Shown: in pieces, positions 3,374 to 16,631 of the stretch
Layout of the letters: the number at the start of each line of letters is the position of its first letter
Numbering within the stretch: the stretch's first letter is position 1
NCBI RefSeq assembly: GCF_000023205.1
Contig: NC_012803.1
Location: 30,001-62,000 of the forward strand
Length of the DNA: 32,000 bases
From: Micrococcus luteus NCTC 2665
GTDB lineage: Bacteria; Actinomycetota; Actinomycetes; Actinomycetales; Micrococcaceae
Reading direction: 5' to 3'
Notes under the pieces: generated by a model
What the model was told of the DNA's origin: nothing
The model's input: the letters and a program-made list of their open reading frames with translations, nothing else
Databases searched by the model: none
Made by a program: the position numbers and the translations under genes

Positions 3374-4324
3374 TCAGGCCACAGCGTTCTGGCGGCTGAG
3401 GTGGCGGTATCGGGTGGGGGTGATGCCGACGGCCTGGCGGAACAGGCGGGCGGCGTGGCCGCGGCTGTGCCAGCCAACTTCGCGCATCGCCTGCTCGATC
3501 GGCAGGTCGGTCTCGCGCAGCAGGCGAGCCAGATGCTCGGCACGCAGCGTCGCCAGGTAGGTCATCGGGGTCTTGCCGTAGGCATCGACGAAGACCCGCC
3601 CGAGCTGAGAGGGCGACAGGTGCACCGCGGCAGCCAGCTCTCCCAGGGTCCACCGGCGCGCGGGCTCATCGCGCAACAGGTGAGCCGTGTCGCGGGCTTC
3701 AGTCCGCAGCGGTGCCAGGCGCCGGAGGGCAGGTGCGGCGAGGCAGGTGGCCTTGTGCTGGGTCGGGGACTGGCGCGCCGCGGTGGTCGTCACAAACGGA
3801 GAGATCACATCCAAAACGGCGAACAGCAGGGCTTGCATCCGGTAGAACCGCTCTGGTGCGGGCCCGTCGAGGCTGAGCTGACTGAGTTCATCCAGCCACG
3901 GCATCAGGCACCCGGCACGGTCCTCACCGAGTCGAAGCACCTGCGCCGGCTCGGAGTAGCGGGCCGCGATGAAGTCCTTGGCCGCCAGCCGATCAGCCAG
4001 CACCGCGGCGTACTGCCAGAACACTTGGTCCACCACATAGTCCCGATCCAGGTACAGCGTGGTGACCGTGACCCAGTCCTCTGGTTCAGCCCCGCACAGG
4101 GTGTTCGCCGCCAGTAGTACCGCATCCCCGACTTTGACCGGGCGTTCGCCGAATTCGCTGAACAGCCACGCCGACCCCGCCCGCACGAAGATCAGTTTCA
4201 CGCAGTCATAGGCGATCGGCTCACGCCGCCGGTGCAAACACTCCGTCCGCGCCACCACCGGCGTCAATCTGAGGTCAGTCACCGTCTGCGACCGATGCTC
4301 GACGGGACCGCGCCGACCGTCCAC
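3374..4324 (-). CDS. AraC-family transcriptional regulator
   Basis: 316-aa ORF. The C-terminus ...WTLGELAAAVHLSPSQLGRVFVDAYGKTPMTYLATLRAEHLARLLRETDLPIEQAMREVGWHSRGHAARLFRQAVGITPTRYR is the double-HTH AraC domain. Confidence 0.85.
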   Translation of the reverse strand: MDGRRGPVEHRSQTVTDLRLTPVVARTECLHRRREPIAYDCVKLIFVRAGSAWLFSEFGERPVKVGDAVLLAANTLCGAEPEDWVTVTTLYLDRDYVVDQVFWQYAAVLADRLAAKDFIAARYSEPAQVLRLGEDRAGCLMPWLDELSQLSLDGPAPERFYRMQALLFAVLDVISPFVTTTAARQSPTQHKATCLAAPALRRLAPLRTEARDTAHLLRDEPARRWTLGELAAAVHLSPSQLGRVFVDAYGKTPMTYLATLRAEHLARLLRETDLPIEQAMREVGWHSRGHAARLFRQAVGITPTRYRHLSRQNAVA

Positions 4325-4558
4325 GTTCGCATGAGCGGCGTCATACCGGTCGCATCAACGAAAATGCGACCGAGCGGTTGTGCTCGGAGCTTCAGGCAGG
4401 ATGTCTCCTAAGCAAGTGGAGTGTTCGCGGCTCTCGAGGATGAGTGATTCGTCGCTTGCGACGAGTCACACACAGTCGGACATGATCGGCTGCGGTGCCC
4501 TCGTAGCAGCACCGGGTGGGGCTCCGGTGTCGCGGGCATGGAACGCTCACTGGGTTGG

Positions 4559-5776
4559 TCATGGGCTCTCGGGGCGGAGGCCAACGCCGATGATTCGTGC
4601 CACGGTCTTCTGCAGGAATGGCGAGTTTCGAATGATTTTCGCTGCCTTGGGCGTCTTGTAGGTTTCGTCAAGGCTCTTGGGGTACAGGTCAGCGAGTATT
4701 TTCACTTGGCCCGCCTGGATTATCCGCGCGGGCCATTCGCGGCGGCGCTGTACGTGTGCCAGTAGCTGCTCGGAAGGGCTCCCGCCTCGGGCGAGTGTCG
4801 GCGCGAGCATCCGTGCGGCAGCCACGGCATCCTGTATGGCGAGGTTGATGCCCACCCCGCCCGCCGGTGACATGGCGTGGGCGGCGTCGCCGATGCAGAG
4901 CAGTCCGGGACGGTGCCAGCGTCTGAGTCGGTTCACCGAGACGGCCAGCAGTTTCAGGTCATCCCAGGAGGTGATTTCCCCACGGAACCGTTCTGCGAGG
5001 ACAGGGAGCGCCTCGTGCAACCGTTCGGCCACGACGTCGGTGCTCTGTGACCGGAGCACGTCGTAGTCTCCTTTGGGGATGCAGTACGCGATCTGCCAGT
5101 ACGAGCCGCGGTCGACCGAGACGATGGTGAACCCCTTGCCGGTGCTGACAAACGGCACTTGGTCGTCTGGCTGACGGCTGATCCTGAACCACAGCACGTC
5201 CATCGGGGCGTCGCTCTCGGTCGGCGGGAGCCAGGCGCGGGCGCGGACGGTCGAGTGCCGCCCATCAGCGCCGATCACCAGGCGCGCCGAGAGTGTTCTC
5301 TCACCCTCGGGGGTCTTGTACCGGACACCGCGTGCCCGATCACCGTCGACAAGGAGTTCGGTGACCTGCGCTTCACGGATTAGCTCGAATGACGGATACG
5401 CTCGGGCTTCTTCAGCGATGAAGTCGAGGAAATCCCATTGCGGCATGAAGGCGACGTAGTTGTAGGGCTCGGAGAGTCGGGAGAAGTCGGCGAACACGGA
5501 CTCTCCGTCCGGGGCCGCGACGGACACGGTGGACATGCGCCGGTGCGGGATCGCGAGGAAGCGGTCGATGATGCCGAGCCGATCCATCACCCTCATAGTC
5601 GAGGGGTGGATGGTGTCGCCGCGGAAGTCACGGAAGAAGTCGGCGTGTTTCTCCAGGACGGTGACCCTGACACCGCGACGCGCAAGGAGCAGCCCCGCCA
5701 TCATGCCCGCGGGCCCCGCGCCGACAACGACGCAGTCGATGCTCGCCTCGCCTGCATGCTGGTTCGTCATGCTCAT
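4559..5776 (-). CDS. FAD-dependent monooxygenase/oxidoreductase, 405 aa
   Basis: MSMTNQHAGEASIDCVVVGAGPAGMMAGLLLARRGVRVTVLEK (GxGxxG Rossmann fold) ...LLCIGDAAHAMSPAGGVGINLAIQDA (FAD-binding GD motif). Start is ATG 5776, with GGAGG 8 nt upstream. The ATG overlaps the TGA of the upstream gene (ATGA at 5776-5773). Confidence 0.85.
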   Translation of the reverse strand: MSMTNQHAGEASIDCVVVGAGPAGMMAGLLLARRGVRVTVLEKHADFFRDFRGDTIHPSTMRVMDRLGIIDRFLAIPHRRMSTVSVAAPDGESVFADFSRLSEPYNYVAFMPQWDFLDFIAEEARAYPSFELIREAQVTELLVDGDRARGVRYKTPEGERTLSARLVIGADGRHSTVRARAWLPPTESDAPMDVLWFRISRQPDDQVPFVSTGKGFTIVSVDRGSYWQIAYCIPKGDYDVLRSQSTDVVAERLHEALPVLAERFRGEITSWDDLKLLAVSVNRLRRWHRPGLLCIGDAAHAMSPAGGVGINLAIQDAVAAARMLAPTLARGGSPSEQLLAHVQRRREWPARIIQAGQVKILADLYPKSLDETYKTPKAAKIIRNSPFLQKTVARIIGVGLRPESP

Positions 5777-6873
5777 CGGGAACCTCCGGTTCCTGCCTCG
5801 TGGGATGTCGGCTGGGTGCGACGGGAGATGAGCGCGAGCGCGATGCCGATGGCTGCCCAGCACGCCAGCACCCACCACGACACGGCGGCGGACGCTTCGG
5901 GGAAGTAGCCAACGACGCGGGTCAGGGTGCCGGTGGCTCCGGGGATCATCCACTGCCCGACGTAGCCGAGACCCGCAGGTAGGAATGCGTAGGGCACGGC
6001 GAACGCCGCCCACGGCATGGCAGCAAAGAGAGTGATCGCGGCGGCGATGCCGAGCCCGGCGCGACCGAGTGCGGAGTGCAGTCCGACGAACAGGCCGCTG
6101 GTCGCGGTCAGCGACAGTCCAAGGGTTAGCCACATCGCACCGAACGATCCGGGGTACACATCGAGCCAGGTGCCGAGCACGAGGGTGAGCAGCAGCCCGC
6201 CTCCAACGCCGAGGCCGAGGACTGCACTGATGCGCTGCCACCTACCGGTGAGGGTGAACGTGATCACGATGCCCGCGAGCAGCGCCCCGACCGTCATCGG
6301 GATTCCCGCCACGGTCGCGCCGACTCCGTTGGGGTCGCCGGCCGAGTACGGCACCACATCGGTGACCGTGATCTCGGGCAGCGCCTCGGGCGTCTGCGCG
6401 AGAGCGGTGGCAGGATCGACGCCCTGCTCGACCGCGCCCCGGACGCCTTCCGTCACGCCCGCATAGACCTGCGCGTCGAGCATGGCCTGGAGCCCGGAGG
6501 CCAACTCGCTCATGAAAGCGGCGGGCACCTGCCCATTCGCCGAAGCGGTCAGCACCTCGGGGGCATCGTGGGCGAGCACGATCCCGCCGATGAACTCCCG
6601 CGTCAGGATGCCCTCGTGCGCGTCGGCGCGCCCGTCCACCCGCACAAGGTCGACCACCTCGTCCAAGCCCTCTCCCGCACCAGCCATGAACTCGTCCACC
6701 AGTTCGGCATCCCCGGTCACCGCGATCGACAATCCCGTCGCCTCACCGCGCGCCCCCGGCCAAACGAAACTCAACACCAGCAGCGACAGCGCCACAGCCA
6801 CCAGCGCGACGACCCCCGCCACCTGCCCCCACCGGCTCCCCGCCGGCTGAGCCATCTCCTCGTTCTCCATCAT
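5773..6873 (-). CDS. Polytopic integral membrane protein (ABC-2 / YhgE-Pip-like permease type), 366 aa
   Basis: I chose the start at ATGATG 6873 (MMENEEMAQPAG...), with GAGGAGG upstream. There is one N-terminal TM segment, a soluble loop, then about five hydrophobic segments (TVGALLAGIVITF, VLGLGVGGGLLLTLVLG, AMWLTLGLSLTATSGLFVGL, ...). The family assignment is tentative. Confidence 0.6.
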   Translation of the reverse strand: MMENEEMAQPAGSRWGQVAGVVALVAVALSLLVLSFVWPGARGEATGLSIAVTGDAELVDEFMAGAGEGLDEVVDLVRVDGRADAHEGILTREFIGGIVLAHDAPEVLTASANGQVPAAFMSELASGLQAMLDAQVYAGVTEGVRGAVEQGVDPATALAQTPEALPEITVTDVVPYSAGDPNGVGATVAGIPMTVGALLAGIVITFTLTGRWQRISAVLGLGVGGGLLLTLVLGTWLDVYPGSFGAMWLTLGLSLTATSGLFVGLHSALGRAGLGIAAAITLFAAMPWAAFAVPYAFLPAGLGYVGQWMIPGATGTLTRVVGYFPEASAAVSWWVLACWAAIGIALALISRRTQPTSHEAGTGGSR

Positions 6874-7813: not shown

Positions 7814-9064
7814 GTGGGCAGAGGCGGGTTGTACTCAGGTTTCGAGGCGTACCGTGTCCTCACAGCGGAAGACATCAAGAGCGCGCTCCAGCACGGTGTC
7901 GTTGCCCTTGACACCAATGTGTTGCTGAATCTCTACCGGTACAACGAGAAGACTGTCGATGACTTGCTGCGCGTGGCCGAGGCTGCCGCAGAGCGCCTCT
8001 TCGTACCGCACCAGGTGGTCAGAGAGTTCTGGCGTAATCGCCAGTCGGTAATCGCGAGCCTAGGCAGCGCGTCCAGGGACGCCCAGGCAGCGCTGGCGAA
8101 GAACTCGACCTCAACGAAGGACGCGATAACCCGTTGGGCCAAGAGTGTTGCCCTTCCTGGCGAGGAAAGGGCCGACCTGACCAAGGAAGTGGACGACTTC
8201 TACGACGGGTTGCGTGAACGAGTAGGTGAGGAGCCCATCAGAGTCTCCGCTCACGCGCCCACGTCCGAGGACCTGTTGTTGGCACGACTGGAACAATTGC
8301 TTGAGGACTCTGTTGGCCCCGCGCTCTCGGAAGAGGACTGGAAGAAGGCGGTCGAGGAGGGCGAACGACGGGTAGAGAACTCGATCCCGCCTGGCTATAT
8401 GGATGTCGAAAAGCTTGAGTCTGACCTCCCGGAAGGGGCGTCAGGGGACTATCTCGTCTGGCATCAACTGCTTCTTGAGGGTGGTGAGCGTGGGGTCGAC
8501 TTGGTGCTTGTGACCGCAGACACGAAAGAAGATTGGTGGAACCGGGCAGATCGAGGGTCGATCATTGGTGCCCGCCACGAGCTGGTTGACGAGTACCTCC
8601 AAGCGACTGGGTGTCGGTTCTTTCTTCTCGAACCAGCGGACCTGATCAAGCACTCTTCGGCGCTGGGTGTTGGAACCAGCCTTGAGTCCGTCCACGACAT
8701 CGAACGTGTGCGTGACGAGGAACCAGAGCATGTCCCGTGGAGCGCTGACGCGGCGAGAGCAGTTCTGAGGGAACTCGATTCTCAGGGTCATACGCAGGCT
8801 GATGTGATCAGAGAAGCGATTGCGAATGGCGGAAGAATCTCGCGGGCGCGCGTCTATGAACTGGATAATCGTGACGAGAGCCAGATGCTGCGTGGATTCA
8901 CGCGGCCCGTCAAGCGCGTCACGGCCGAACTTCAAGCAAAGGGGGGCGTGCCATACGGCGTTGCCGCTTTGCTCGACGCCGTGTATGAGACTGGCGTGAA
9001 GTCGTCTCACTTTGCGGTACCCCATGAGGTCGTGGAGCTGCTCGGCGAGGAGCGCCCTATCTAA
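7814..9064 (+). CDS. PIN-like (DUF4935 / PIN_8-type) nuclease-domain protein with an extra C-terminal domain, 416 aa
   Basis: GTG start with GAGGAG 5 nt upstream. Acidic PIN-type positions lie in VVALDTNVLLNLYRY, VPHQVVREFW and VLVTADTKEDWWN, which is the DUF4935 consensus as I remember it. By eye it has more A/T-ending codons than the flanking genes. Confidence 0.6.
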   Translation: MGRGGLYSGFEAYRVLTAEDIKSALQHGVVALDTNVLLNLYRYNEKTVDDLLRVAEAAAERLFVPHQVVREFWRNRQSVIASLGSASRDAQAALAKNSTSTKDAITRWAKSVALPGEERADLTKEVDDFYDGLRERVGEEPIRVSAHAPTSEDLLLARLEQLLEDSVGPALSEEDWKKAVEEGERRVENSIPPGYMDVEKLESDLPEGASGDYLVWHQLLLEGGERGVDLVLVTADTKEDWWNRADRGSIIGARHELVDEYLQATGCRFFLLEPADLIKHSSALGVGTSLESVHDIERVRDEEPEHVPWSADAARAVLRELDSQGHTQADVIREAIANGGRISRARVYELDNRDESQMLRGFTRPVKRVTAELQAKGGVPYGVAALLDAVYETGVKSSHFAVPHEVVELLGEERPI

Positions 9065-9098: not shown

Positions 9099-12000
9099 GT
9101 GACCGTCTCGATGCGGGTGATGAGCGCGGGCGATGGCTACAGGTATCTCCTGCGCACGGTCGCGGCTGCGGATGGCGACCGTGAGCTGTCCACGCCGCTG
9201 ACGAGGTACTACGCGGAGGCGGGCACACCACCGGGCCAATGGCTCGGCTCCGGCGTCACCTCACTCGGCAAGGGTCAGCTCGCGGTCGGTGATCGGGTGT
9301 CGGAGGCCCAGCTCCAGCTCTTGATGGGCATGGGCCGTGACCCGATCACCGGCGACCCGCTCGGTCACGCCTTCCCCGCCTACAAGTCCGTGCCGGAGCG
9401 GATCGAGTCCCGGATCGCCGACCTCGACCCCGGCCTGAGCCCAGGTGCCAAGGGCCAGGCGGTCGCGCAGATCGAGGTCGAGGAGACCGAACGCGGCAGA
9501 CGCCGGGCGGTAGCCGGGTTCGACTTCACCTTCTCGATCCCGAAGTCGGCCTCGGCGTTGTGGGCTGTCGCCGACTCAGGGACGCAGGCCCTCATCGGGA
9601 AGGCACATCACGCGGCGGTTGCGGAGGTGGTTGCGTTCATGGAGCGCGAGGTTGCAGCCACCCGCTCCGGCGCAACCGCCGGTGATGGAGCGGTTGCGCA
9701 GGTCGATGTGACCGGGCTGGTGGCGACGGCGTTCGATCACTTCGACTCCCGCGCCGGCGACCCTCACCTGCACACCCACGTCGTCATCTCCAACAAGGTC
9801 CAGACTGCCTTCGACGGCAGATGGCGCAGTCTGGATGGGCGTCCGATGCACGCCGCCGTGGTCGCCCTGTCGGAGCTGCACGAGGCGGTGTTCGCCGACC
9901 ACATGACCCGCACCTTCGGCGTCGCATGGGAGGCCCGCGACATGGGCCGAGACCGCAACCCCGCGTGGGCGATCAGCAGCGTGCCCGAGGAGCTGGTGGC
10001 CGAGTTCTCCACCCGTGCCCGACACATCGACGCCGAGAAGGACAGACTCATCGCCGAGTACGTCGCCAAGCACGGCCGCCAACCCTCCACAGCCACGATC
10101 ATCAAGCTCCGCGCCCAAGCCACCCTCGCCACACGCCCGGAGAAGGAAGTGCGGTCGCTGGCCGAACTGACTGCCGAGTGGCGCACCCGCGCCAGCGGGG
10201 TGCTCGGCCAGGACACCACCGCCTGGGCAAGCGCCGCGACGGACAACGACAAGCCGCTGCTGCTGCGAGCCGATGACGTGCCCCTGGATGCGATCGGCGA
10301 ACTCGGGCGGACCGTGGTCGGGGTGGTGGGTGAGAGGCGGTCCACGTGGCGGCGGTGGAACCTGATGGCCGAGGCGTCCCGGCAAACGATGGGCTGGCGC
10401 TTCGCCACCATGCAAGACCGCGAAGCTGTGGTGGGCATGGTGGCCGACGCCGCCGAGGCTGTGTCGCTGCGGCTGACGCCACCCGACTTCGCCACGAGCC
10501 CGGTCGCGTTCCGGAGGGTGGATGGCACCAGCGTGTTCCGGCCCAAGCACTCGACGGTGTTCTCCTCCGAGCTGCTGCTGGCCGCCGAGGATCGGCTGTT
10601 GGACCGCTCCCGCACCGCGACCGGACCGACCGTGCCGCTGGCCACGGTCGAGAAGGTCACCACGGAGCCTGATCGTGAGGGGCGGATGCTCGGTGAGGAT
10701 CAGGCCGACGCGCTGATGAAGGTCGCGGTCTCTGGCCGGATGCTCGATGTGCTGGTGGGGCCGGCGGGCGCGGGGAAGACGACGGCTATGTCGGCGTTGC
10801 GGCGTGCGTGGGAGAAGGAACACGGCGAGGGCTCCGTGGTCGGGCTGGCACCGTCCGCGGTCGCGGCGCAGGTTCTCGCTGACGATCTGGGCATTGCGAC
10901 GGAGAACACCGCGAAGTGGTGGCAGGACCACCTCATCCACGGCGAGAACTTCCGGGCAGGTCAGCTCGTCATCATCGACGAAGCCTCCCTGGCCGGAACG
11001 CTCTCGTTGGATCGGATCACGCACCTGGCCGAGCGGGCGGGGGCGAAGGTGCTGCTGGTCGGCGACTATGCCCAGCTCCAGTCCGTGGATGCCGGTGACG
11101 CTTTCGGGCTCCTCGTCGGTGACCGGGACGATGCGCCCGAACTGGTCGATGTGCACCGGTTCACCCACGAGTGGGAGAAGACCGCCTCCCTCGCACTGCG
11201 CCACGGGCGCACGCAGGTGATCGACGCCTACCTCGACCACGACCGCATCCGCGACGGTGACGCCGAGGCGATGACCGACGCCGCCTATACCGCCTGGCGC
11301 GCCGACCGGAGCCAAGGCTTGGTGTCGGTGCTGGTCGCTGAGACCCGTGACGACGTGAGCGCCCTCAACCAGCGCGCCCGTGCCGATCTGATTCTCGACG
11401 GCACGTTGAGGCCTGGTCGGGAGGTCGAGCTGAACGACGGCGTCACTGCTGGGGTTGGGGACACGATCATCACCCGCCGCAACGACCGCCGCCTCCGCAA
11501 CGGCAAGGACTGGGTCCGCAACGGTGACGCCTGGACCGTCACCGGTGTCCGAGACGACGGCTCGGTCACGATCCGCAAGGCCGGCCGTCGGTTCGGCGGC
11601 TCTCTCGTCCTCCCCACCGCCTACGTGACCGACCATGTTGATCTGGGATATGCGATCACTGCCCACAGGGCGCAAGGCGTCACCGTCGACACTGCGCACG
11701 TGCTGGTGGAGCCGACAACCACGCGGGAGAACTTCTATGTCGCGATGACCCGCGGCAAGCACGCCAACCGCGCCTACGTGATCCTCGACCGGCCCGACGA
11801 GCACGCCCACCCGCATCCGGGCGACAACGCCGACGCTACCGGCCGGTCCGTGCTATTCGGCGTACTCCAGCACGTCGGGGCGGAGTTGTCCGCGCACGAG
11901 ACCATCACCGCCGAACAGGAGCAGTGGGGTTCGATCGCCCAGCTCGTGGCGGAGTACGAGACCATCGCCGCCGCAGCACAACGCGACCGCTGGGCCACCC

Positions 12001-12644
12001 TGATCCGCGGCTCGGGCCTGACTGCCGAACAGGCCGAGGCCGCGATCGAGTCCGAGGCGTTCGGGGCGCTCACCGCGGAACTGCGCCGAGCCGAGGCCAA
12101 CCACCACGACCTCGACACCTTGCTCCCACGCCTGGTTGTCGCGCGCGGGTTCACCGACGCCGACGACATCGCCTCCGTCCTGCACTACCGGGTGGCCCGT
12201 GCCACCGCCCGCCCAGCCGGCTCGGGACGCACCCGCAAGACGCCACGGATGATCGCCGGACTGATCCCGTCCGCGGACGGCCCGATGACCGGCGACATGC
12301 GGCAGGCACTCGATGAGCGGCGCGAGCTGATCGAGACCCGCGCCGAGGCCGTGCTCGACACCGCATGCGACGCCGGAGAAGCATGGACGCGGCCACTCGG
12401 TGAGCCACCGCGCGAGCCGCGCACGGCAGCGGCGTGGCGACGGCATGGCCGCACCATCGCTGCTTACCGTGACCGGTACGGCATCACCGACGTGACGCCG
12501 CTCGGATCACCGGCCGAGAGTGACACACAGAAGATCGATCAAGCGCGAGCCGCCGCCGCGCTGCGGACCATCACACTGGCAACGCAGGCCCCGGAGCGTG
12601 AGAGCCAGCCCGTCAGACAAGTGACTCGCGGGCTCGGGCTCTGA
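9099..12644 (+). CDS. MobF-family conjugative relaxase (TrwC/TraA type) fused to a RecD-like helicase, 1181 aa
   Basis: N-terminus MTVSMRVMSAGDGYRYLL. Histidine triad FDHFDSRAGDPHLHTHVVISN. Walker A LVGPAGAGKTT. Walker B LVIIDEASL. C-terminus YAITAHRAQGVTVD. The GTG 9099 start is preferred over ATG 9111 by spacing to the conserved SAGDGY motif. Confidence 0.92.
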   Translation: MTVSMRVMSAGDGYRYLLRTVAAADGDRELSTPLTRYYAEAGTPPGQWLGSGVTSLGKGQLAVGDRVSEAQLQLLMGMGRDPITGDPLGHAFPAYKSVPERIESRIADLDPGLSPGAKGQAVAQIEVEETERGRRRAVAGFDFTFSIPKSASALWAVADSGTQALIGKAHHAAVAEVVAFMEREVAATRSGATAGDGAVAQVDVTGLVATAFDHFDSRAGDPHLHTHVVISNKVQTAFDGRWRSLDGRPMHAAVVALSELHEAVFADHMTRTFGVAWEARDMGRDRNPAWAISSVPEELVAEFSTRARHIDAEKDRLIAEYVAKHGRQPSTATIIKLRAQATLATRPEKEVRSLAELTAEWRTRASGVLGQDTTAWASAATDNDKPLLLRADDVPLDAIGELGRTVVGVVGERRSTWRRWNLMAEASRQTMGWRFATMQDREAVVGMVADAAEAVSLRLTPPDFATSPVAFRRVDGTSVFRPKHSTVFSSELLLAAEDRLLDRSRTATGPTVPLATVEKVTTEPDREGRMLGEDQADALMKVAVSGRMLDVLVGPAGAGKTTAMSALRRAWEKEHGEGSVVGLAPSAVAAQVLADDLGIATENTAKWWQDHLIHGENFRAGQLVIIDEASLAGTLSLDRITHLAERAGAKVLLVGDYAQLQSVDAGDAFGLLVGDRDDAPELVDVHRFTHEWEKTASLALRHGRTQVIDAYLDHDRIRDGDAEAMTDAAYTAWRADRSQGLVSVLVAETRDDVSALNQRARADLILDGTLRPGREVELNDGVTAGVGDTIITRRNDRRLRNGKDWVRNGDAWTVTGVRDDGSVTIRKAGRRFGGSLVLPTAYVTDHVDLGYAITAHRAQGVTVDTAHVLVEPTTTRENFYVAMTRGKHANRAYVILDRPDEHAHPHPGDNADATGRSVLFGVLQHVGAELSAHETITAEQEQWGSIAQLVAEYETIAAAAQRDRWATLIRGSGLTAEQAEAAIESEAFGALTAELRRAEANHHDLDTLLPRLVVARGFTDADDIASVLHYRVARATARPAGSGRTRKTPRMIAGLIPSADGPMTGDMRQALDERRELIETRAEAVLDTACDAGEAWTRPLGEPPREPRTAAAWRRHGRTIAAYRDRYGITDVTPLGSPAESDTQKIDQARAAAALRTITLATQAPERESQPVRQVTRGLGL

Positions 12645-12701
12645 GGGGACCGCATCGGCCTGTCATCCTTACTGGAGACGATTGGACGGAATGGTGACGG
12701 C

Positions 12702-13832
12702 ATGACACAAGCCGAGCTCGCGGCTGAGGTGGCGCGCCGCCTCGGAGTCGTCGCGCATCCCGCCACCACCCAGATCGCCGAAGCGGTCGCGTTGTTCGCC
12801 CCGTTGGGATGGGCGATGTGCGGTCGCTGGCACCAGGCCGGGACCGTTCGGGTCCTGCGGCTTGCTGCAAGTGGTGTTGAGTCCGCGGCGATCGATGAGG
12901 CGATCACCGAGGTCTGGAACTCTGACAATCAGGTTCTTCTCCGGCATGCAGCGGCACCGATACGGCGATGGTCGAACTCGCACTACCCGTTCAAGCAGGT
13001 GATTTGGGACCGCGTGGCTCTCATCGAGAAGGCGATTCAGCATCATCTCGCGGGAGCCTACGAGGCGTCGATCCCGATCATCCTTGCGCAGATCGACGGG
13101 ATGAGCCGCGACCTGACAGGGCAGTCGTTCTTTTCCAAAGCCAACGCGGACCCGTATCTTGATGACGCAACGCTGGCCGGGATGGAGGAGAACCTGCCGG
13201 TCGTCCGCCGAGTCTTCTCCAAGAACGTCGATGAGTCCGGAAGCTTCGGTCTCGTCTCACGCCACGGTGTTTTGCACGGTCGAGACCTTGGCTACGCGAC
13301 GCGTGTGAACTCGACCAAGACGATCGTGCTCGTCGCCGCTCTGGCGGAGTACTTTCCGCGTATCGCGGATGACGCCGGCGCTCGGCTACGCCGACTCCAC
13401 GAAGAGTCCGTTGCTGGCTCGCGGGAACTCGATGAGTCGGGTCGGCTGCTCGATGATCGACACCTCCCCGAGCTACTCAACTTCGCCTACGACTTCGACA
13501 CCGAGTACCTCAACGCTGTGCTCCTTCGTCCCGGCCCGTTCGATGTACACGCGACGCTCGCGGAGCTTGCCAGGAAGCACAACCTCGACCACGATACCTT
13601 TGTCGTCGGGCAAGATCGCGTCGGCTGCTGGTGGCACTACACAGTCCCCGCAGGCCAGACGCTCGGCTATGCGGCTCGGCCGACGACCAGCACCGAAAGG
13701 CGGCACCCCGACGTCTGGCGATGGGACACCTCCGACGCGCCCACCGGGCCGCCGTGGACGAAGGCGGAGGGGTGGCGATCGGACGATGACTTCCCGCGGT
13801 CACCCAATTGGGAGCGCGACCCCGTCATCTGA
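12702..13832 (+). CDS. Hypothetical protein, 376 aa, with a HEPN-like R-x4-H motif
   Basis: High-GC3 ORF 57 nt after the relaxase stop. The helical region AIQHHLAGAYEASIPIILAQIDGMSRDL is followed by GLVSRHGVLHGRDLGY (R187-x4-H192). I do not recognise a family. Confidence 0.55.
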   Translation: MTQAELAAEVARRLGVVAHPATTQIAEAVALFAPLGWAMCGRWHQAGTVRVLRLAASGVESAAIDEAITEVWNSDNQVLLRHAAAPIRRWSNSHYPFKQVIWDRVALIEKAIQHHLAGAYEASIPIILAQIDGMSRDLTGQSFFSKANADPYLDDATLAGMEENLPVVRRVFSKNVDESGSFGLVSRHGVLHGRDLGYATRVNSTKTIVLVAALAEYFPRIADDAGARLRRLHEESVAGSRELDESGRLLDDRHLPELLNFAYDFDTEYLNAVLLRPGPFDVHATLAELARKHNLDHDTFVVGQDRVGCWWHYTVPAGQTLGYAARPTTSTERRHPDVWRWDTSDAPTGPPWTKAEGWRSDDDFPRSPNWERDPVI

Positions 13833-13878
13833 CGATGTGACGGACGAAACGTATCGATAGCGGAGAGCGAGAGACGAA

Positions 13879-14520
13879 GTGAGTGAAGATCCGGTTGGTC
13901 GTGCCGAAGGCATCATCGCTGGGTTCGACGCGATACTGCCCGAGCAAGAACGGGTGCTGGAACAAGCTGCTGAGAACGTCAAGCTCGGTCTCGAAAGAGA
14001 CTCCGAGGTCTACCGAGGGTTCACGCAGCTTCAGTTCTTCATCCTCACGGTCGACTTTGATATGCGGGTCATGCTCCGCGCTCTGCTTGCCGACCCGCAG
14101 AATCGGCTCACCGCCGAGAAGTTCCTCGCCTTGACCCTCGAAGAGGCAGAAGAGTCGGCAGGGCGGATGGTCAATGCCGTATCCAAGGCGATGCGGACTC
14201 TACCCAATGACACCGGCATCCATCTGTTCGACATCACCAAGTTCGATGAAGCGGTGCGCGCATTCAAACAGGCGATGTCGGAGATGAGGGACGACAAGGA
14301 GTTCAACAAGACCCTACGTCTCATTCGGAACACGGTCTCCGGCCACATTGTCGGCGACGAGGTCGGTGTCCAGAACAGCGCAATCTGGGTCCTCACCCGC
14401 AAAGGCGTCCCACGCGACATCGACGGAGTCTTGCGGAGCCAGATCGTCTACTACGCCATCGCGACGTTGAAGGCACTGAGCGAGTTCGCGCAGGGGCTGC
14501 AACGAACCCTGCGCGCCTGA
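13879..14520 (+). CDS. Hypothetical helical protein, 213 aa, with an Abi/HEPN-like RNxxxxH motif
   Basis: GTG start 46 nt after the previous stop. TLRLIRNTVSGHIVGDE (R150-N-x4-H156) resembles the RN...H signature of Abi-type HEPN domains. Confidence 0.5.
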   Translation: MSEDPVGRAEGIIAGFDAILPEQERVLEQAAENVKLGLERDSEVYRGFTQLQFFILTVDFDMRVMLRALLADPQNRLTAEKFLALTLEEAEESAGRMVNAVSKAMRTLPNDTGIHLFDITKFDEAVRAFKQAMSEMRDDKEFNKTLRLIRNTVSGHIVGDEVGVQNSAIWVLTRKGVPRDIDGVLRSQIVYYAIATLKALSEFAQGLQRTLRA

Positions 14521-14714
14521 GTGCTTTCCACGACCGAGCGGAGGCGGCAGCGAGGGAGTCGCAGTGGAGGGGAGTGTGACAGCTCCGTCTGAATCGGTCC
14601 AGAAGCGACCGGTCCGTTGCCTGCGCCGAGCCAGCACATTGGCGACACGTACCGAGGTGTTGAGAGCGCGTCGCAGCAACGGCCTGTGTCAGACCGCCAT
14701 GGGAAGGTTGAAGC

Positions 14715-15239
14715 ATGGTAGCCATCTCAATCGTTGCCCTGGTCATCTCGGCCTTCGCCCTGCCATTCACCATCTGGGCAGCGCGGGCGGCCGCGAGGCA
14801 GGCGAAGGCGGCGCACGACCAGACGGAGATCCAACGCGAGCAGGTAGCCGCCGCGCGGGAGCAGACTCAACTACAACGCGATCTCGCTCATGAGGCACTA
14901 CAGCCCTACGTGTGGGCGGACATCCAGCCAGATATGCAACAAGGCACCGTGATGCACGTGGTGGTGGGTAACAACGGTCCCACCGTCGCACGCAACGTGA
15001 GGGTGACGTTCGATCCACCGCTTCCAGCCGGCCAGCAACAGTCGGACAAGGTCGAGAGTGTTCAGCGGGTGCTCGCCAGCGGACTCCGCTCACTCGCGCC
15101 GAAACGGGAAATCCGGTGGACGCTCGGTGCCGGCTACGACCTCCTGTCCAGCGAGGAACCACAGGTCCGCACTGTGCGTGTCGAAGGCGAGGGCCCGCAC
15201 GGTCCGGGTCAAGTCCCGAGTAGTGGTGTAACGCTCTGA
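14715..15239 (+). pseudogene. N-terminally membrane-anchored hypothetical protein, 5' part, truncated by IS256 copy 2. Native sequence is 14715..15206; the tail GQVPSSGVTL* is IS-encoded
   Basis: The TM segment is MVAISIVALVISAFALPFTIWAA. The frame enters the IS at 15207. Confidence 0.7.
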
Positions 15240-16631
15240 TCCTCCATTGGTGCTGTTAGGCGCTGAGTTCGAGGGTGGTTTCCGGTTCGGCGTTCACCTC
15301 GTTCCCGGTGTCGTCCACGGTGGTGAGGCGGCAGCGGGCCAACACCTCGAGGCCGAGGTAGCGGCGGCCCTCGGCCCACTCATCGGTCTGCTCAGCCAGC
15401 ACCGCCCCGACCAGGCGCACGATCGCTGCCCGGTTCGGGAAGATGCCCACGGCGTCGGTGCGACGCCGGATCTCGCGGTTGAGCCGTTCGGCCGGGTTGT
15501 TCGACCAGATCTGGGTCCACACGTCCTTGGGGAACGTGGTGAACGCCAGGATGTCCGCCCGGGCACCATCGAGGTGTTCGGCCACCGCGGGCAGCTTTTC
15601 GCTGACGTAGTCCAGCAGCCGGTCGAACTGGGCGTCCACGCTGGCGGCGTCGGGCTGGTCATACACCGAGTGCAGCATGGCCTTCACGGCCGGCCACATG
15701 GACTTGGGGGTGATGCCCATCAGGTTCGCCGCGTAGTGGGTCCGGCACCGCTGCCAGGTCGCTCCGGGCAGGTTCGCGGCGATGGCGTCCTTGAGCCCGG
15801 TGTGGGCGTCGGAAGTGACCAGGCGGACTCCGGTCAGGCCCCGGGCCACCAGGTCGGCGAAGAACTCGTTCCACGCCGACCCCGTCTCCGAGGTGGCCAC
15901 CCGCAGGCCGAGGACCTCGCGGTGGCCGTCACCATTGACCCCGGTGGCCAGCAGCACCACGGCGTTGACCACCCGGCCGCCCTCGCGGACCTTCATGCTC
16001 AGCGCGTCGGCGGCCACGAACGTGAACGGCCCAGCCTCCCCGAGCGGGCGATGACGGAAGGACTCGACCTGCTCGTCCAGCTCGGTGGCCATCCGCGAGA
16101 CCTGGGACTTCGACAGCGCGTTGATCCCGAGGGTCTTGACCAGTTTGTCCATCCGCCGGGTCGAGACCCCGGCCAGGTAGCAGTCGGCGACCACCGTGAT
16201 CAGCGCGGATTCGGCCCTTTTGCGGCGCTCGAGCAGCCACTCCGGGAAGTACGTGCCCGACCTGAGTTTGGGGATCGCCACGTCCAGGGTCCCGACCCGG
16301 GTGTCCAGGTCCCGGTGCCGGTACCCGTTGCGCTGGGTAGCTCGGCCCGGGGTGGGTTTACCCCATTCGGCGCCGACCACCGCGTCGGCGTCAGCGGAGA
16401 GCAGGGAGTTGATCACGGTCTGCAGCAACGAACGCATCAAATCCGGGGATGCTTCGGACAGGGCTTCGCCGAGCAGGCCGGCAGGGTCGACAATATGAGG
16501 AGCGGTCATCGTGATGACTCCGTTCGAGGATTCTGTGAGAGGTTGACTCGAAGGATCACACGGTGGCCGCGTCCACGTCTGGAACGACGTGCCCGACCAC
16601 CGGGCGCTACACCACTATGCGGGACTCAACT
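15207..16631 (-). mobile_element. IS256-family insertion sequence, copy 2 (1425 bp), inverted relative to copies 1 and 3
   Basis: Same ends as copy 1. The 8-bp target duplication ACGGTCCG lies at 15199-15206 and 16632-16639. Confidence 0.92.
15256..16509 (-). CDS. IS256-family transposase, 417 aa
   Basis: The protein, and all overlapping shadow ORFs, are identical to those of copies 1 and 3. Confidence 0.93.
   Translation of the reverse strand: MTAPHIVDPAGLLGEALSEASPDLMRSLLQTVINSLLSADADAVVGAEWGKPTPGRATQRNGYRHRDLDTRVGTLDVAIPKLRSGTYFPEWLLERRKRAESALITVVADCYLAGVSTRRMDKLVKTLGINALSKSQVSRMATELDEQVESFRHRPLGEAGPFTFVAADALSMKVREGGRVVNAVVLLATGVNGDGHREVLGLRVATSETGSAWNEFFADLVARGLTGVRLVTSDAHTGLKDAIAANLPGATWQRCRTHYAANLMGITPKSMWPAVKAMLHSVYDQPDAASVDAQFDRLLDYVSEKLPAVAEHLDGARADILAFTTFPKDVWTQIWSNNPAERLNREIRRRTDAVGIFPNRAAIVRLVGAVLAEQTDEWAEGRRYLGLEVLARCRLTTVDDTGNEVNAEPETTLELSA

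What the first reader, a model, noticed from the sequence alone, without database searches (positions are those of the whole stretch)
12702..14520. Two adjacent orphan genes downstream of the relaxase, each with a HEPN-type R-x4-6-H motif
What the sequence shows:
- ORF 12702-13832 contains GLVSRHGVLHGRDLG (R187-x4-H192). The motif follows a helical segment, AIQHHLAGAYEASIPIILAQIDG.
- ORF 13879-14520 contains LRLIRNTVSGHIVGD (R150-N-x4-H156).
- Both genes are on the same strand as the relaxase, with gaps of 57 and 46 nt. A membrane-anchored gene follows them.

Established knowledge: R[NHD]xxx(x)H in a helical context is the catalytic signature of HEPN RNases (Abi families, toxin modules).

Inference: a pair of divergent HEPN proteins plus a membrane protein on a conjugative element looks like an abortive-infection or addiction module. 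I cannot assign either protein to a named family.
Basis: partly seen in the sequence, partly recalled or inferred. Interest (0 to 1): 0.62.

Follow-up and report, generated by a model that had tools for sequence, protein, structure and literature searches.

The report
Two independent HEPN-like genes after relaxase
Two genes just after the DNA-transfer (relaxase) gene of an actinobacterial mobile element each look like a divergent HEPN-type RNase of the kind used in phage defence, but they are separate single-gene units that merely sit side by side, not one three-gene system.

Summary
Both ORFs, both motifs, the 57- and 46-nt gaps and the membrane-anchored third gene are as described.

The genes are not orphans:
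- **ORF1 (376 aa)** belongs to a wide, unnamed family found in Actinomycetota, Pseudomonadota, Bacteroidota, Chloroflexota, Myxococcota and archaea. R187, H188, H192, G193, R194 and D137 are invariant. Its central domain is specifically related to DUF4209, the C6orf70-type HEPN family that PADLOC lists as candidate PDC-S39. The top Foldseek hit in BFVD is a phage DUF4209 protein (E 1.7e-3). hhalign scores 38.5 over 119 columns with the motifs aligned, against 12-21 for controls.
- **ORF2 (213 aa)** is all-helical. Across 33 relatives down to about 17-20% identity, only N151 and H156 are invariant and R150 is at least 90% conserved. Its links to the AbiU2 and RiboL-PSP HEPN families are weak and below threshold.

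The module idea fails:
- ORF2 follows ORF1 in only 8 of 25 ORF1 loci, all close relatives of the window copy.
- ORF2 relatives occur alone.
- The membrane gene recurs only in one 98% twin.
- ORF1 is often directly downstream of a TrwC relaxase (12 of 25 loci).

Best reading: two stacked stand-alone HEPN-type cargo genes, probably Abi-like RNases. No activity has been tested. An earlier first-reader note records the same ORF1-type gene after a relaxase in another genome.

The parts
9099..12644 (+). TrwC-type relaxase/helicase (1181 aa). Context gene, and a frequent upstream neighbour of ORF1 homologues.
   Evidence: Pfam TrwC E 9.6e-91 and AAA_30 E 1.6e-59. A homologous relaxase lies directly upstream of the ORF1 homologue in 12 of 25 loci.
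12702..13832 (+). ORF1, 376 aa. Member of a wide unnamed family with three parts: an N-terminal helical region, a central DUF4209-like HEPN domain, and a C-terminal alpha/beta domain.
   Evidence: 64 homologues. Distant relatives of about 430 aa occur in many phyla. AF2 model pLDDT 84.5. No Pfam, NCBIfam or PADLOC hit.
12984..13412 (+). ORF1 central HEPN-like domain (residues about 95-237). Helix hairpin 95-139 carries D132/D137. An insert spans 140-186, followed by the motif and helices 201-237.
   Evidence: hhalign of the ORF1 family against an 11-sequence DUF4209 alignment scores 38.5, E 6.4e-4, over 119 columns (ORF1 101-223). Reversed and shuffled controls score 11.8-21.1. The Foldseek BFVD top hit is a DUF4209 protein, E 1.7e-3.
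13260..13283 (+). ORF1 motif R187-H188-G-V-L-H192-G193-R194 (R-x4-H with polar H after the R).
   Evidence: Translation. Invariant in alignments A1 and A4; 40-41 of 41. Aligned on the NLRNxxAHG motif of DUF4209.
13464..13811 (+). ORF1 C-terminal alpha/beta domain (residues about 255-370) with conserved P347, W358 and W370. Function unknown, possibly a sensor or target-binding part.
   Evidence: AF2 secondary structure shows strands 301-343. Conservation. This part is matched separately in other genomes.
13879..14520 (+). ORF2, 213 aa, all-alpha. Probable stand-alone HEPN-superfamily protein (AbiU2-like motif).
   Evidence: 40 homologues. 54 representative clusters among 1.84 billion. AF2 pLDDT 91.4, eight helices. 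HEPN_AbiU2 is the only recurrent Pfam family among relatives, 6 of 33, all below cut-off.
14326..14346 (+). ORF2 motif R150-N151-T-V-S-G-H156 (R-N-x4-H) at the C-terminal end of helix 140-158.
   Evidence: Translation. N151 and H156 are the only invariant columns and R150 is at least 90% conserved in A3. Aligned on the RRNKLYAH motif of AbiU2.
14715..15206 (+). 5' part of ORF3, a membrane-anchored gene cut by IS256. It is not a conserved partner of ORF1 or ORF2.
   Evidence: Found only in locus L020, a 98% twin, where an intact 263-aa frame exists. No family hit.

Best explanation
ORF1 and ORF2 are two separate, stand-alone HEPN-superfamily genes. They sit one after the other in the cargo region directly downstream of the TrwC relaxase of an actinobacterial conjugative element.

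**ORF1.** It belongs to a widespread unnamed family whose central domain is a divergent relative of the DUF4209 (C6orf70-type) HEPN domain. That domain is flanked by an N-terminal helical region and a family-specific C-terminal alpha/beta domain.

**ORF2.** It is a small all-helical protein whose only family-wide conserved feature is an R-N-x4-H motif at the end of a helix, as in AbiU2-type HEPN proteins.

**Shown here:**
- the genes and their conservation;
- which residues are invariant;
- the predicted secondary structure;
- the specific similarity of ORF1 to DUF4209;
- the lack of obligate co-occurrence of the two genes.

**Inferred:**
- each protein is a metal-independent RNase that probably acts as a dimer with R/H active sites, as in other HEPN proteins;
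- each is kept inactive until triggered, by phage infection or another stress;
- each then cleaves cellular or phage RNA, giving abortive infection or growth arrest that benefits the mobile element.

The membrane-anchored ORF3 is unrelated cargo.
For: **ORF1**
- R187, H188, H192, G193, R194 and D137 are invariant, from close relatives to homologues of about 16-20% identity in other phyla and in archaea.
- The top Foldseek hit in BFVD is a phage 'DUF4209 domain-containing protein': E 1.7e-3, probability 1.00, target-normalised TM-score 0.52, 239 columns.
- DUF4209 is listed as the C6orf70 HEPN family with a conserved Rx4-6H motif (PMC3710099).
- hhalign of the ORF1 family against DUF4209 proteins scores 38.5, E 6.4e-4, over 119 co-linear columns. 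AGAYEASIPIILAQIDG aligns on xGxYxAAxxxxPxIE, and SRHGVLHG aligns on NLRNxxAHG.
- Controls score 12.7-13.5 (reversed) and 11.8-21.1 (20 column shuffles).
- In an hmmsearch with the ORF1-family profile against about 3,800 decoy frames, a DUF4209 protein is the best non-member.

**ORF2**
- N151 and H156 are the only invariant columns among 33 relatives, and R150 is at least 90% conserved.
- The motif sits at the end of helix 140-158. D59-x3-R63 lies in helix 43-71.
- HEPN_AbiU2 is the only Pfam family hit repeatedly by relatives: 6 of 33, best E 1.7e-4.
- hhalign against AbiU2 scores 23.6 at the motif, with shuffles at 6.8-16.9.
- hhalign against RiboL-PSP scores 17.5 on the helix-2 acidic motif, with shuffles at 7-12.3.
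- True HEPN families score only 13-26 against each other by the same method.

**Independence of the two genes**
- Census; tree.
- ORF2 occurs alone in L015/16, L018/19, L090 and L091.
- Distant ORF1 relatives have no conserved neighbour.

**Defence-like setting**
- Neighbours in related loci include CBASS (L012), a Gabija-like pair plus ApeA-HEPN (L014) and TIR genes (L015).
- DUF4209 proteins match the PADLOC single-gene candidate PDC-S39.
- GC3 of ORF1 and ORF2 is 0.76-0.77, against 0.85 for the relaxase.
Against: - No curated HMM (Pfam, NCBIfam, PADLOC) hits either protein or its close relatives at threshold.
- Foldseek against the PDB gives no significant match for either model and no HEPN structure in the top 50.
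- hhalign 'probabilities' are low (about 25-28% for ORF1 against DUF4209, about 3.5% for ORF2 against AbiU2), because no secondary structure was used and the profiles are small.
- In the ORF1 model the motif lies in a short helix after a loop, not at the end of a long helix 3.
- The UniProt name 'RiboL-PSP-HEPN' for an ORF2 homologue could not be reproduced.
- No RNase activity, toxicity or defence phenotype has been tested. PDC-S39 itself is only a candidate system.
- The tight link of ORF1 to relaxases could point to a transfer-related role instead.
Confidence: 0.55

Rival explanations
1. One reading: ORF1, ORF2 and the membrane protein ORF3 work together as one abortive-infection or addiction module, for example one HEPN protein as toxin with the other as partner or antitoxin.
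For: - The genes share a strand with short gaps (57, 46 and 194 nt). No promoter-like or terminator-like site was found between them.
- The ORF1-ORF2 pair is kept in 8 ORF1-seeded loci and 3 metagenome contigs across several actinobacterial families, including one without a relaxase (L017/L034).
Against: - 17 of 25 ORF1 loci lack ORF2, some with ORF1 84-89% identical to the window copy (L026, L027).
- ORF2 relatives at 47-66% identity stand alone in other contexts.
- ORF3 is seen only in the 98% twin L020.
- Distant ORF1 relatives have no conserved neighbour.
- ORF2 keeps its own catalytic-type motif, which an antitoxin need not do.
Confidence: 0.15
2. ORF1 is an accessory of the conjugation machinery rather than a defence gene. 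It would be co-transcribed with the relaxase and act during transfer or establishment, for example by processing RNA, countering recipient defences or stabilising the element.
For: - A TrwC relaxase lies directly upstream on the same strand in 12 of 25 loci, in several separate branches of the ORF1 tree. One of these is a locus with a decayed relaxase.
- 8 of 14 plasmids carrying family members are typed conjugative.
- Another first-reader note describes the same arrangement in a different genome.
- No terminator-like site follows the relaxase.
Against: - Many family members have no relaxase nearby: L013, L027, L028, L034, L035 and all distant relatives.
- The twin locus L020 keeps ORF1-ORF2-ORF3 but loses homology exactly upstream of ORF1, so the block moves as cargo.
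- GC3 differs from the relaxase.
- The nearest recognisable relatives (DUF4209, PDC-S39) are defence-island and R-M-associated genes.
Confidence: 0.18
3. One or both proteins are not nucleases. The conserved R/H residues would serve ligand or nucleic-acid binding in a helical regulator or scaffold, as in HEPN-like proteins that lost catalysis, or the proteins have an unrelated helical fold.
For: - Foldseek against the PDB finds only generic helical bundles.
- No curated HEPN HMM is matched at threshold.
- The links of ORF2 to AbiU2 and RiboL-PSP cover only 22-30 columns.
Against: - Non-catalytic HEPN domains usually lose the Rx4-6H motif (PMC3710099). Here R, the polar residue after it, and H are the most conserved positions of both families.
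- For ORF1 the similarity to DUF4209 spans 119 columns and two motifs.
Confidence: 0.12

Closest known systems
DUF4209 (Pfam PF13910), the C6orf70-type HEPN family of Anantharaman et al. 2013; bacterial members match the PADLOC candidate system PDC-S39
   Same: - ORF1 shares the helix-1/2 signature (aGxYeAs..iP.Ie/d), the insert, and an R-[N/H]-x3-H-G motif that follows a loop after helix 3. The alignment is co-linear over about 120 residues.
- It is the best fold match in BFVD.
- Both are stand-alone genes on plasmids and mobile elements, in variable defence-like neighbourhoods.
   Different: - ORF1 and its relatives do not reach the Pfam DUF4209 or PADLOC PDC-S39 models at all.
- In DUF4209/PDC-S39 proteins (about 390-770 aa) the HEPN domain is C-terminal after a long helical region.
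- In the ORF1 family (376-445 aa) the domain is central and followed by a distinct alpha/beta domain with conserved Trp and Pro.
- ORF1 has H, not N, after the arginine, plus an extra invariant G-R-D after the histidine.
AbiU2 (Pfam PF18734, HEPN_AbiU2), the lactococcal abortive-infection HEPN family
   Same: - ORF2 is of similar size (about 210 aa), all-helical and stand-alone.
- It has the same R-N-x4-H spacing (RNTVSGH against RRNKLYAH) at the same relative position.
- 6 of 33 ORF2 relatives give sub-threshold AbiU2 hits.
- hhalign aligns the motif helix.
   Different: - ORF2 itself and most relatives do not hit the model.
- All hits are below the 26.8-bit cut-off.
- The profile built from ORF2 relatives does not retrieve true AbiU2 proteins.
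- Similarity is limited to about 22 columns.
RiboL-PSP-HEPN (Pfam PF18735)
   Same: - UniProt names one ORF2 homologue (67% identical) this way.
- D59-x3-R63 in helix 2 of ORF2 aligns with the E-x3-R of this family, above shuffles.
   Different: - There is no Pfam hit for that homologue or for ORF2.
- hhalign E is only 0.096 and the alignment does not include the R-x-H motif.
HEPN-MNT / HepT-MntA toxin-antitoxin pairs
   Same: A HEPN-type predicted RNase carried on a mobile element.
   Different: No nucleotidyltransferase (MNT) partner is present. Neither gene has any obligate partner, and no RNA antitoxin-like repeat or Rfam family lies in the region.

Membership tests
HEPN superfamily (ORF1) | Conserved Rx4-6H motif with a polar residue (N/D/H) directly after the R | tested here: met
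   R187-H188-x3-H192 is invariant in 27 close relatives and in the 33-sequence wide alignment, and 40-41 of 41 in the alignment. Definition from PMC3710099.
HEPN superfamily (ORF1) | Conserved acidic residue in helix 2, often as E-x3-[KR] | tested here: met
   D137 is invariant and D132 is present in 35 of 41 sequences, both in predicted helix 120-139. D132-x3-R136 aligns on the I-E-x3-R of DUF4209.
HEPN superfamily (ORF1) | Four-helix up-down core of two hairpins, an insert between helices 2 and 3, and the motif at the end of helix 3 | tested here: inconclusive
   The AF2 model has hairpins 95-139 and 201-237 and an insert at 140-186, but the motif sits in a short helix 187-191 after a loop. 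There is no HEPN hit in the PDB. The top BFVD hit is a DUF4209 protein, E 1.7e-3. Model coordinates could not be inspected.
HEPN superfamily (ORF1) | Profile-profile similarity to an accepted HEPN family | tested here: met
   hhalign against DUF4209 scores 38.5, E 6.4e-4, over 119 columns. Controls score 11.8-21.1.
HEPN superfamily (ORF1 and ORF2) | Metal-independent RNase activity dependent on R and H | not testable with these tools
   Needs biochemistry.
DUF4209 / PDC-S39 family (ORF1) | Match to Pfam PF13910 or PADLOC PDC-S39 HMM at threshold, with a C-terminal HEPN domain in a 390-770 aa protein | tested here: not met
   No hit for ORF1, for 27 close relatives or for 33 wide relatives. The architecture differs.
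HEPN superfamily (ORF2) | Conserved Rx4-6H motif with a polar residue after the R, at the end of a helix | tested here: met
   In R150-N151-x4-H156, N and H are invariant and R is at least 90% conserved across 33 relatives. The motif ends helix 140-158.
HEPN superfamily (ORF2) | Acidic residue in helix 2 (E-x3-[KR]) | tested here: met
   D59-x3-R63 in helix 43-71 is invariant among close relatives and appears as D/E-x3-K/R in most distant ones. It aligns on the E-x3-R of RiboL-PSP.
HEPN superfamily (ORF2) | Fold or profile similarity to an accepted HEPN family | tested here: inconclusive
   Foldseek against the PDB is not significant. AbiU2 hits are sub-threshold in 6 of 33 relatives. hhalign scores 23.6 against AbiU2 and 17.5 against RiboL-PSP. 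Both are above shuffles but cover only short stretches.
AbiU2 family (ORF2) | Match to PF18734 above the 26.8-bit cut-off | tested here: not met
   There is no hit for ORF2. The two relatives inspected score 13.6-14.2 bits, and the best of the six has E 1.7e-4.
RiboL-PSP-HEPN family (ORF2) | Match to PF18735 above cut-off | tested here: not met
   There is no match in the window's own genome at E up to 10, and none for the homologue that UniProt names this way.
Multi-gene Abi / toxin-antitoxin module (ORF1+ORF2+ORF3) | The genes co-occur as a unit across loci | tested here: not met
   ORF2 follows ORF1 in 8 of 25 ORF1-seeded loci. ORF1 precedes ORF2 in 4 of 8 ORF2-seeded loci. ORF3 occurs in 1 of 25.

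The most novel reading that the evidence does not exclude
The ORF1 family is a new, widespread single-gene immune or addiction RNase family: a DUF4209-like HEPN domain fused to a novel C-terminal sensor domain. In Actinomycetota it has become a habitual passenger directly behind MOBF/TrwC relaxase genes and is co-expressed with them. It would therefore be switched on as soon as the element enters a new cell. In the window's clade it may additionally pair with the ORF2 HEPN protein as a heteromeric nuclease.
Probability: 0.2. Interest if true: 0.55.

Novelty: new member of a known kind. Interest (0 to 1): 0.36.

Why it matters
- The work gives a first handle on two protein families that no curated library names. 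One of them (ORF1) is spread across bacterial phyla and archaea and sits on many conjugative plasmids and integrative elements.
- Placing ORF1 next to DUF4209/PDC-S39 links it to a defence candidate that is itself untested, and to the eukaryotic C6orf70 HEPN family.
- The recurrent position right after a relaxase suggests a cargo hot-spot, or co-expression with transfer genes, which is easy to test.
- The result is incremental. HEPN domains are already known to be extremely diverse and common in defence islands, and nothing here points to a new mechanism.

Tried and rejected
**Searches that found nothing**
- Pfam, NCBIfam and PADLOC scans of ORF1, ORF2, their close relatives and ten distant ORF1 relatives gave no meaningful hit.
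- Profile searches of the PDB sequences with A1, A2, A3 and A4 gave only designed helical proteins or noise.
- Foldseek against the PDB for both models gave nothing significant.
- Rfam and tandem-repeat scans for an RNA antitoxin found nothing.
- The promoter and terminator scan found nothing.

**Ideas tested and rejected**
- ORF1 and ORF2 as paralogues: hhalign of A1 against A2 gives probability 0.3%.
- The UniProt label 'RiboL-PSP-HEPN' for P0086: not reproducible with Pfam, so it was treated only as a lead.
- The ORF2 family against DUF4209, and the ORF1 family against AbiU2: no signal. These served as negative controls.
- A conserved partner gene for distant ORF1 relatives: none was found across phyla.

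**Underpowered or unavailable**
- A first four-sequence AbiU2 profile was too small to be informative.
- Sampling 400 genomes of the class for both families returned too few matches for a census.
Full report
**1. Observation**

The two frames exist as described: ORF1 at 12702-13832 (376 aa) and ORF2 at 13879-14520 (213 aa), both on the + strand.
- They follow a 1181-aa protein that matches Pfam TrwC (E 9.6e-91) and AAA_30. The gaps are 57 and 46 nt.
- The motif stretches translate to RHGVLHGR (R187-R194) and RNTVSGH (R150-H156).
- ORF3 (14715-15239) begins with a hydrophobic segment and runs into an IS256 copy.
- A bare R-x4-6-H means little. ORF1 has ten such pairs against 3.8 expected. The strict form with N/D/H after the R is expected 0.55 and 0.05 times in the two proteins. 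The case therefore rests on conservation and structure.

**2. Not orphans**

- ORF1 has 64 cluster-level homologues and ORF2 has 40, nearly all unnamed.
- In 27 ORF1 relatives, R187, H188, H192, G193 and R194 are invariant.
- In 29 ORF2 relatives, R150, N151 and H156 are invariant.
- No Pfam, NCBIfam or PADLOC model matches either protein or its relatives.
- AF2 models built on these alignments are confident: pLDDT 84.5 and 91.4.
- ORF1 has a helical N-terminal two-thirds and a C-terminal four-stranded alpha/beta domain. ORF2 is eight helices.

**3. ORF1 belongs to a wide family related to DUF4209**

A scan of species-representative genomes found 67 loci.
- Full-length relatives occur in many actinobacterial families.
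- More distant proteins, typically about 430 aa (275-510), occur in Brevundimonas, Bacteroidota, Chloroflexota, Myxococcota, Bacillota and archaea.
- Across these, D137, R187, H188, H192, G193, R194 and K206, and G36-W37, stay invariant in the 33-sequence alignment A4. R104 is 41/41 in the alignment and at least 90% in A4. P347, W358 and W370 are nearly invariant. The whole three-part protein is therefore the family unit.
- These distant members have no Pfam or PADLOC match. They share no conserved neighbour across phyla.

Foldseek against the PDB was uninformative. Against BFVD the top hit is a phage 'DUF4209 domain-containing protein': E 1.7e-3, probability 1.00, 239 aligned columns, target-normalised TM-score 0.52.

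The HEPN superfamily paper lists DUF4209 as the C6orf70 family, with a conserved Rx4-6H motif, found in R-M-related operons (PMC3710099).

I collected 11 DUF4209 proteins from genomes and plasmids, several annotated as such by NCBI.
- hhalign of the ORF1 family against them scores 38.5 (E 6.4e-4) over 119 co-linear columns (ORF1 101-223).
- AGAYEASIPIILAQIDGMSRD aligns on xGxYeAAxxvxxPxIExxxRx. SRHGVLHG aligns on NLRNxxAHG.
- Controls: reversed profiles score 12.7-13.5 and twenty column shuffles score 11.8-21.1. The ORF2 family against DUF4209 scores 12-17.
- For scale, bona fide HEPN families score only 13-26 against each other by this method.
- In both DUF4209 and ORF1 the motif follows a loop after helix 3, a shared departure from the textbook position.
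- DUF4209 proteins match the PADLOC single-gene candidate PDC-S39. ORF1 does not.

ORF1 is therefore a relative of the DUF4209 HEPN domain, not a member of that family. Its architecture also differs: the HEPN domain is central and followed by a novel C-terminal domain.

**4. ORF2**

An exhaustive profile search of 1.84 billion representatives found only 54 relatives.
- In an alignment of 33 of them, down to about 17-20% identity, the only invariant columns are N151 and H156. R150 and W170 are at least 90% conserved. The consensus is VRNxVAAHH.
- The motif ends helix 140-158. D59-x3-R63 lies in helix 43-71, and two helices are inserted between.
- This matches the published HEPN description: acidic residue in helix 2, an insert between helices 2 and 3, and the motif at the end of helix 3.

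Family-level links are weak.
- HEPN_AbiU2 is the only Pfam family hit repeatedly: 6 of 33 relatives, best E 1.7e-4, all below cut-off.
- hhalign against seven AbiU2 proteins scores 23.6 on the motif helix, with shuffles at 6.8-16.9.
- hhalign against eleven RiboL-PSP proteins scores 17.5 on the acidic motif, with shuffles at 7-12.3.
- The UniProt label 'RiboL-PSP-HEPN' on one homologue is not reproduced by Pfam.
- Foldseek against the PDB gave only generic bundles.

I rate HEPN membership of ORF2 as probable but not shown.

**5. The genes are not one system**

- Among 25 ORF1-seeded loci, ORF2 lies directly downstream in 8. All are close relatives of the window copy, with ORF1 77-98% identical. 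ORF2 is absent from 17, including loci with ORF1 84-89% identical.
- Among 8 ORF2-seeded places, ORF1 is upstream in 4.
- ORF2 relatives at 47-66% identity stand alone: next to TIR genes in Microbacterium aurum, and inside an integrase-bearing element next to a kinase.
- ORF3 appears only in L020, a 95-98% identical block in a Brevibacterium genome. There it is intact (263 aa) and the block's homology starts exactly upstream of ORF1, without the relaxase.

What is recurrent is the relaxase.
- A TrwC homologue lies directly upstream of ORF1 in 12 of 25 loci from several branches of the tree. One of these is a decayed copy.
- A first-reader note on another genome records the same arrangement.
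- Family members are on 14 plasmids, 8 of them typed conjugative. ORF2 is on none.

**6. Setting**

- Related loci carry CBASS, a Gabija-like pair plus ApeA-HEPN, TIR genes, and methylase/helicase genes next to these genes.
- In the window the neighbours are a PIN_8 protein and a DUF4365 nuclease-repeat protein. Earlier notes read these as defence candidates.
- GC3 of ORF1, ORF2 and ORF3 (0.75-0.77) is below that of the relaxase (0.85).
- No RNA family, tandem repeat, promoter-like site or terminator-like site was found in 12400-15300.

**7. Verdict**

The HEPN idea is supported for ORF1 through DUF4209 and is plausible for ORF2. The three-gene module is not supported.

The most likely picture is two independent stand-alone HEPN-type predicted RNases stacked in the cargo slot behind a relaxase, acting as Abi-like or addiction functions for the element. 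RNase activity, triggers and phenotypes are all inferred.

These are new family-level members of a known superfamily, of moderate interest. The most useful leads are the breadth of the ORF1 family and its habitual position after relaxases.

Noticed in passing
L020:9001-10131 (Brevibacterium sp. p3-SID960, 98% twin of ORF1): The closest ORF1 homologue has a stop at codon 367. This removes the last 10 residues, including the nearly invariant N369-W370. The same locus carries an intact 263-aa ORF3 and no relaxase upstream.
   Followed up: partly
L012 / L021 (Brevibacterium sp. 239c), 9106-13348 of L012: Directly after the ORF1-ORF2 pair lies a CBASS-like operon on the opposite strand: SMODS cyclase, ThiF/E1, and JAB-TIR-SAVED. 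This shows that the slot behind the relaxase collects defence cargo.
   Followed up: no
L014 / L044 (Actinomycetaceae bacterium L2_0104): Here the ORF1 homologue follows a frameshifted, decayed TrwC relaxase. It is flanked by an OLD-family ATPase/nuclease plus UvrD-type helicase (Gabija-like) and by an ApeA-type HEPN gene.
   Followed up: partly
L026, about 16.1-16.5 kb (Microbacterium sp. CGMCC 1.60115): A distant ORF2-like frame (profile E 5.4e-9) lies about 6 kb downstream of an ORF1 homologue that has no adjacent ORF2.
   Followed up: no
L015 / L016 (Microbacterium aurum), 4312-6660: A stand-alone ORF2 relative (56% identity) sits divergently from a three-gene set that includes a DUF1883-TIR protein and two unknown proteins of 380 and 130 aa. 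This could be another candidate defence unit.
   Followed up: no
window 7814-9064: The gene just upstream of the relaxase is a clear PIN_8 (PIN-like) protein (E 2.3e-62). It has the lowest GC3 (0.68) of the genes checked in the region.
   Followed up: no
P0086 (Populibacterium corticicola, UniRef100_A0ABW5XGL1): UniProt names this ORF2 homologue 'RiboL-PSP-HEPN domain-containing protein'. The current Pfam PF18735 model gives no hit to it even at E up to 10, so the name may be a machine-predicted label.
   Followed up: yes
L100-L108 (plasmid DUF4209 proteins): DUF4209 proteins of about 390-770 aa from Rhodococcus, Streptomyces, Xanthomonas, Bacillus and Natrinema plasmids match the PADLOC candidate PDC-S39. 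They sit next to other HEPN genes (Swt1-type, HEPN/Toprim-associated), an 'immunity 49' protein and transposases.
   Followed up: partly
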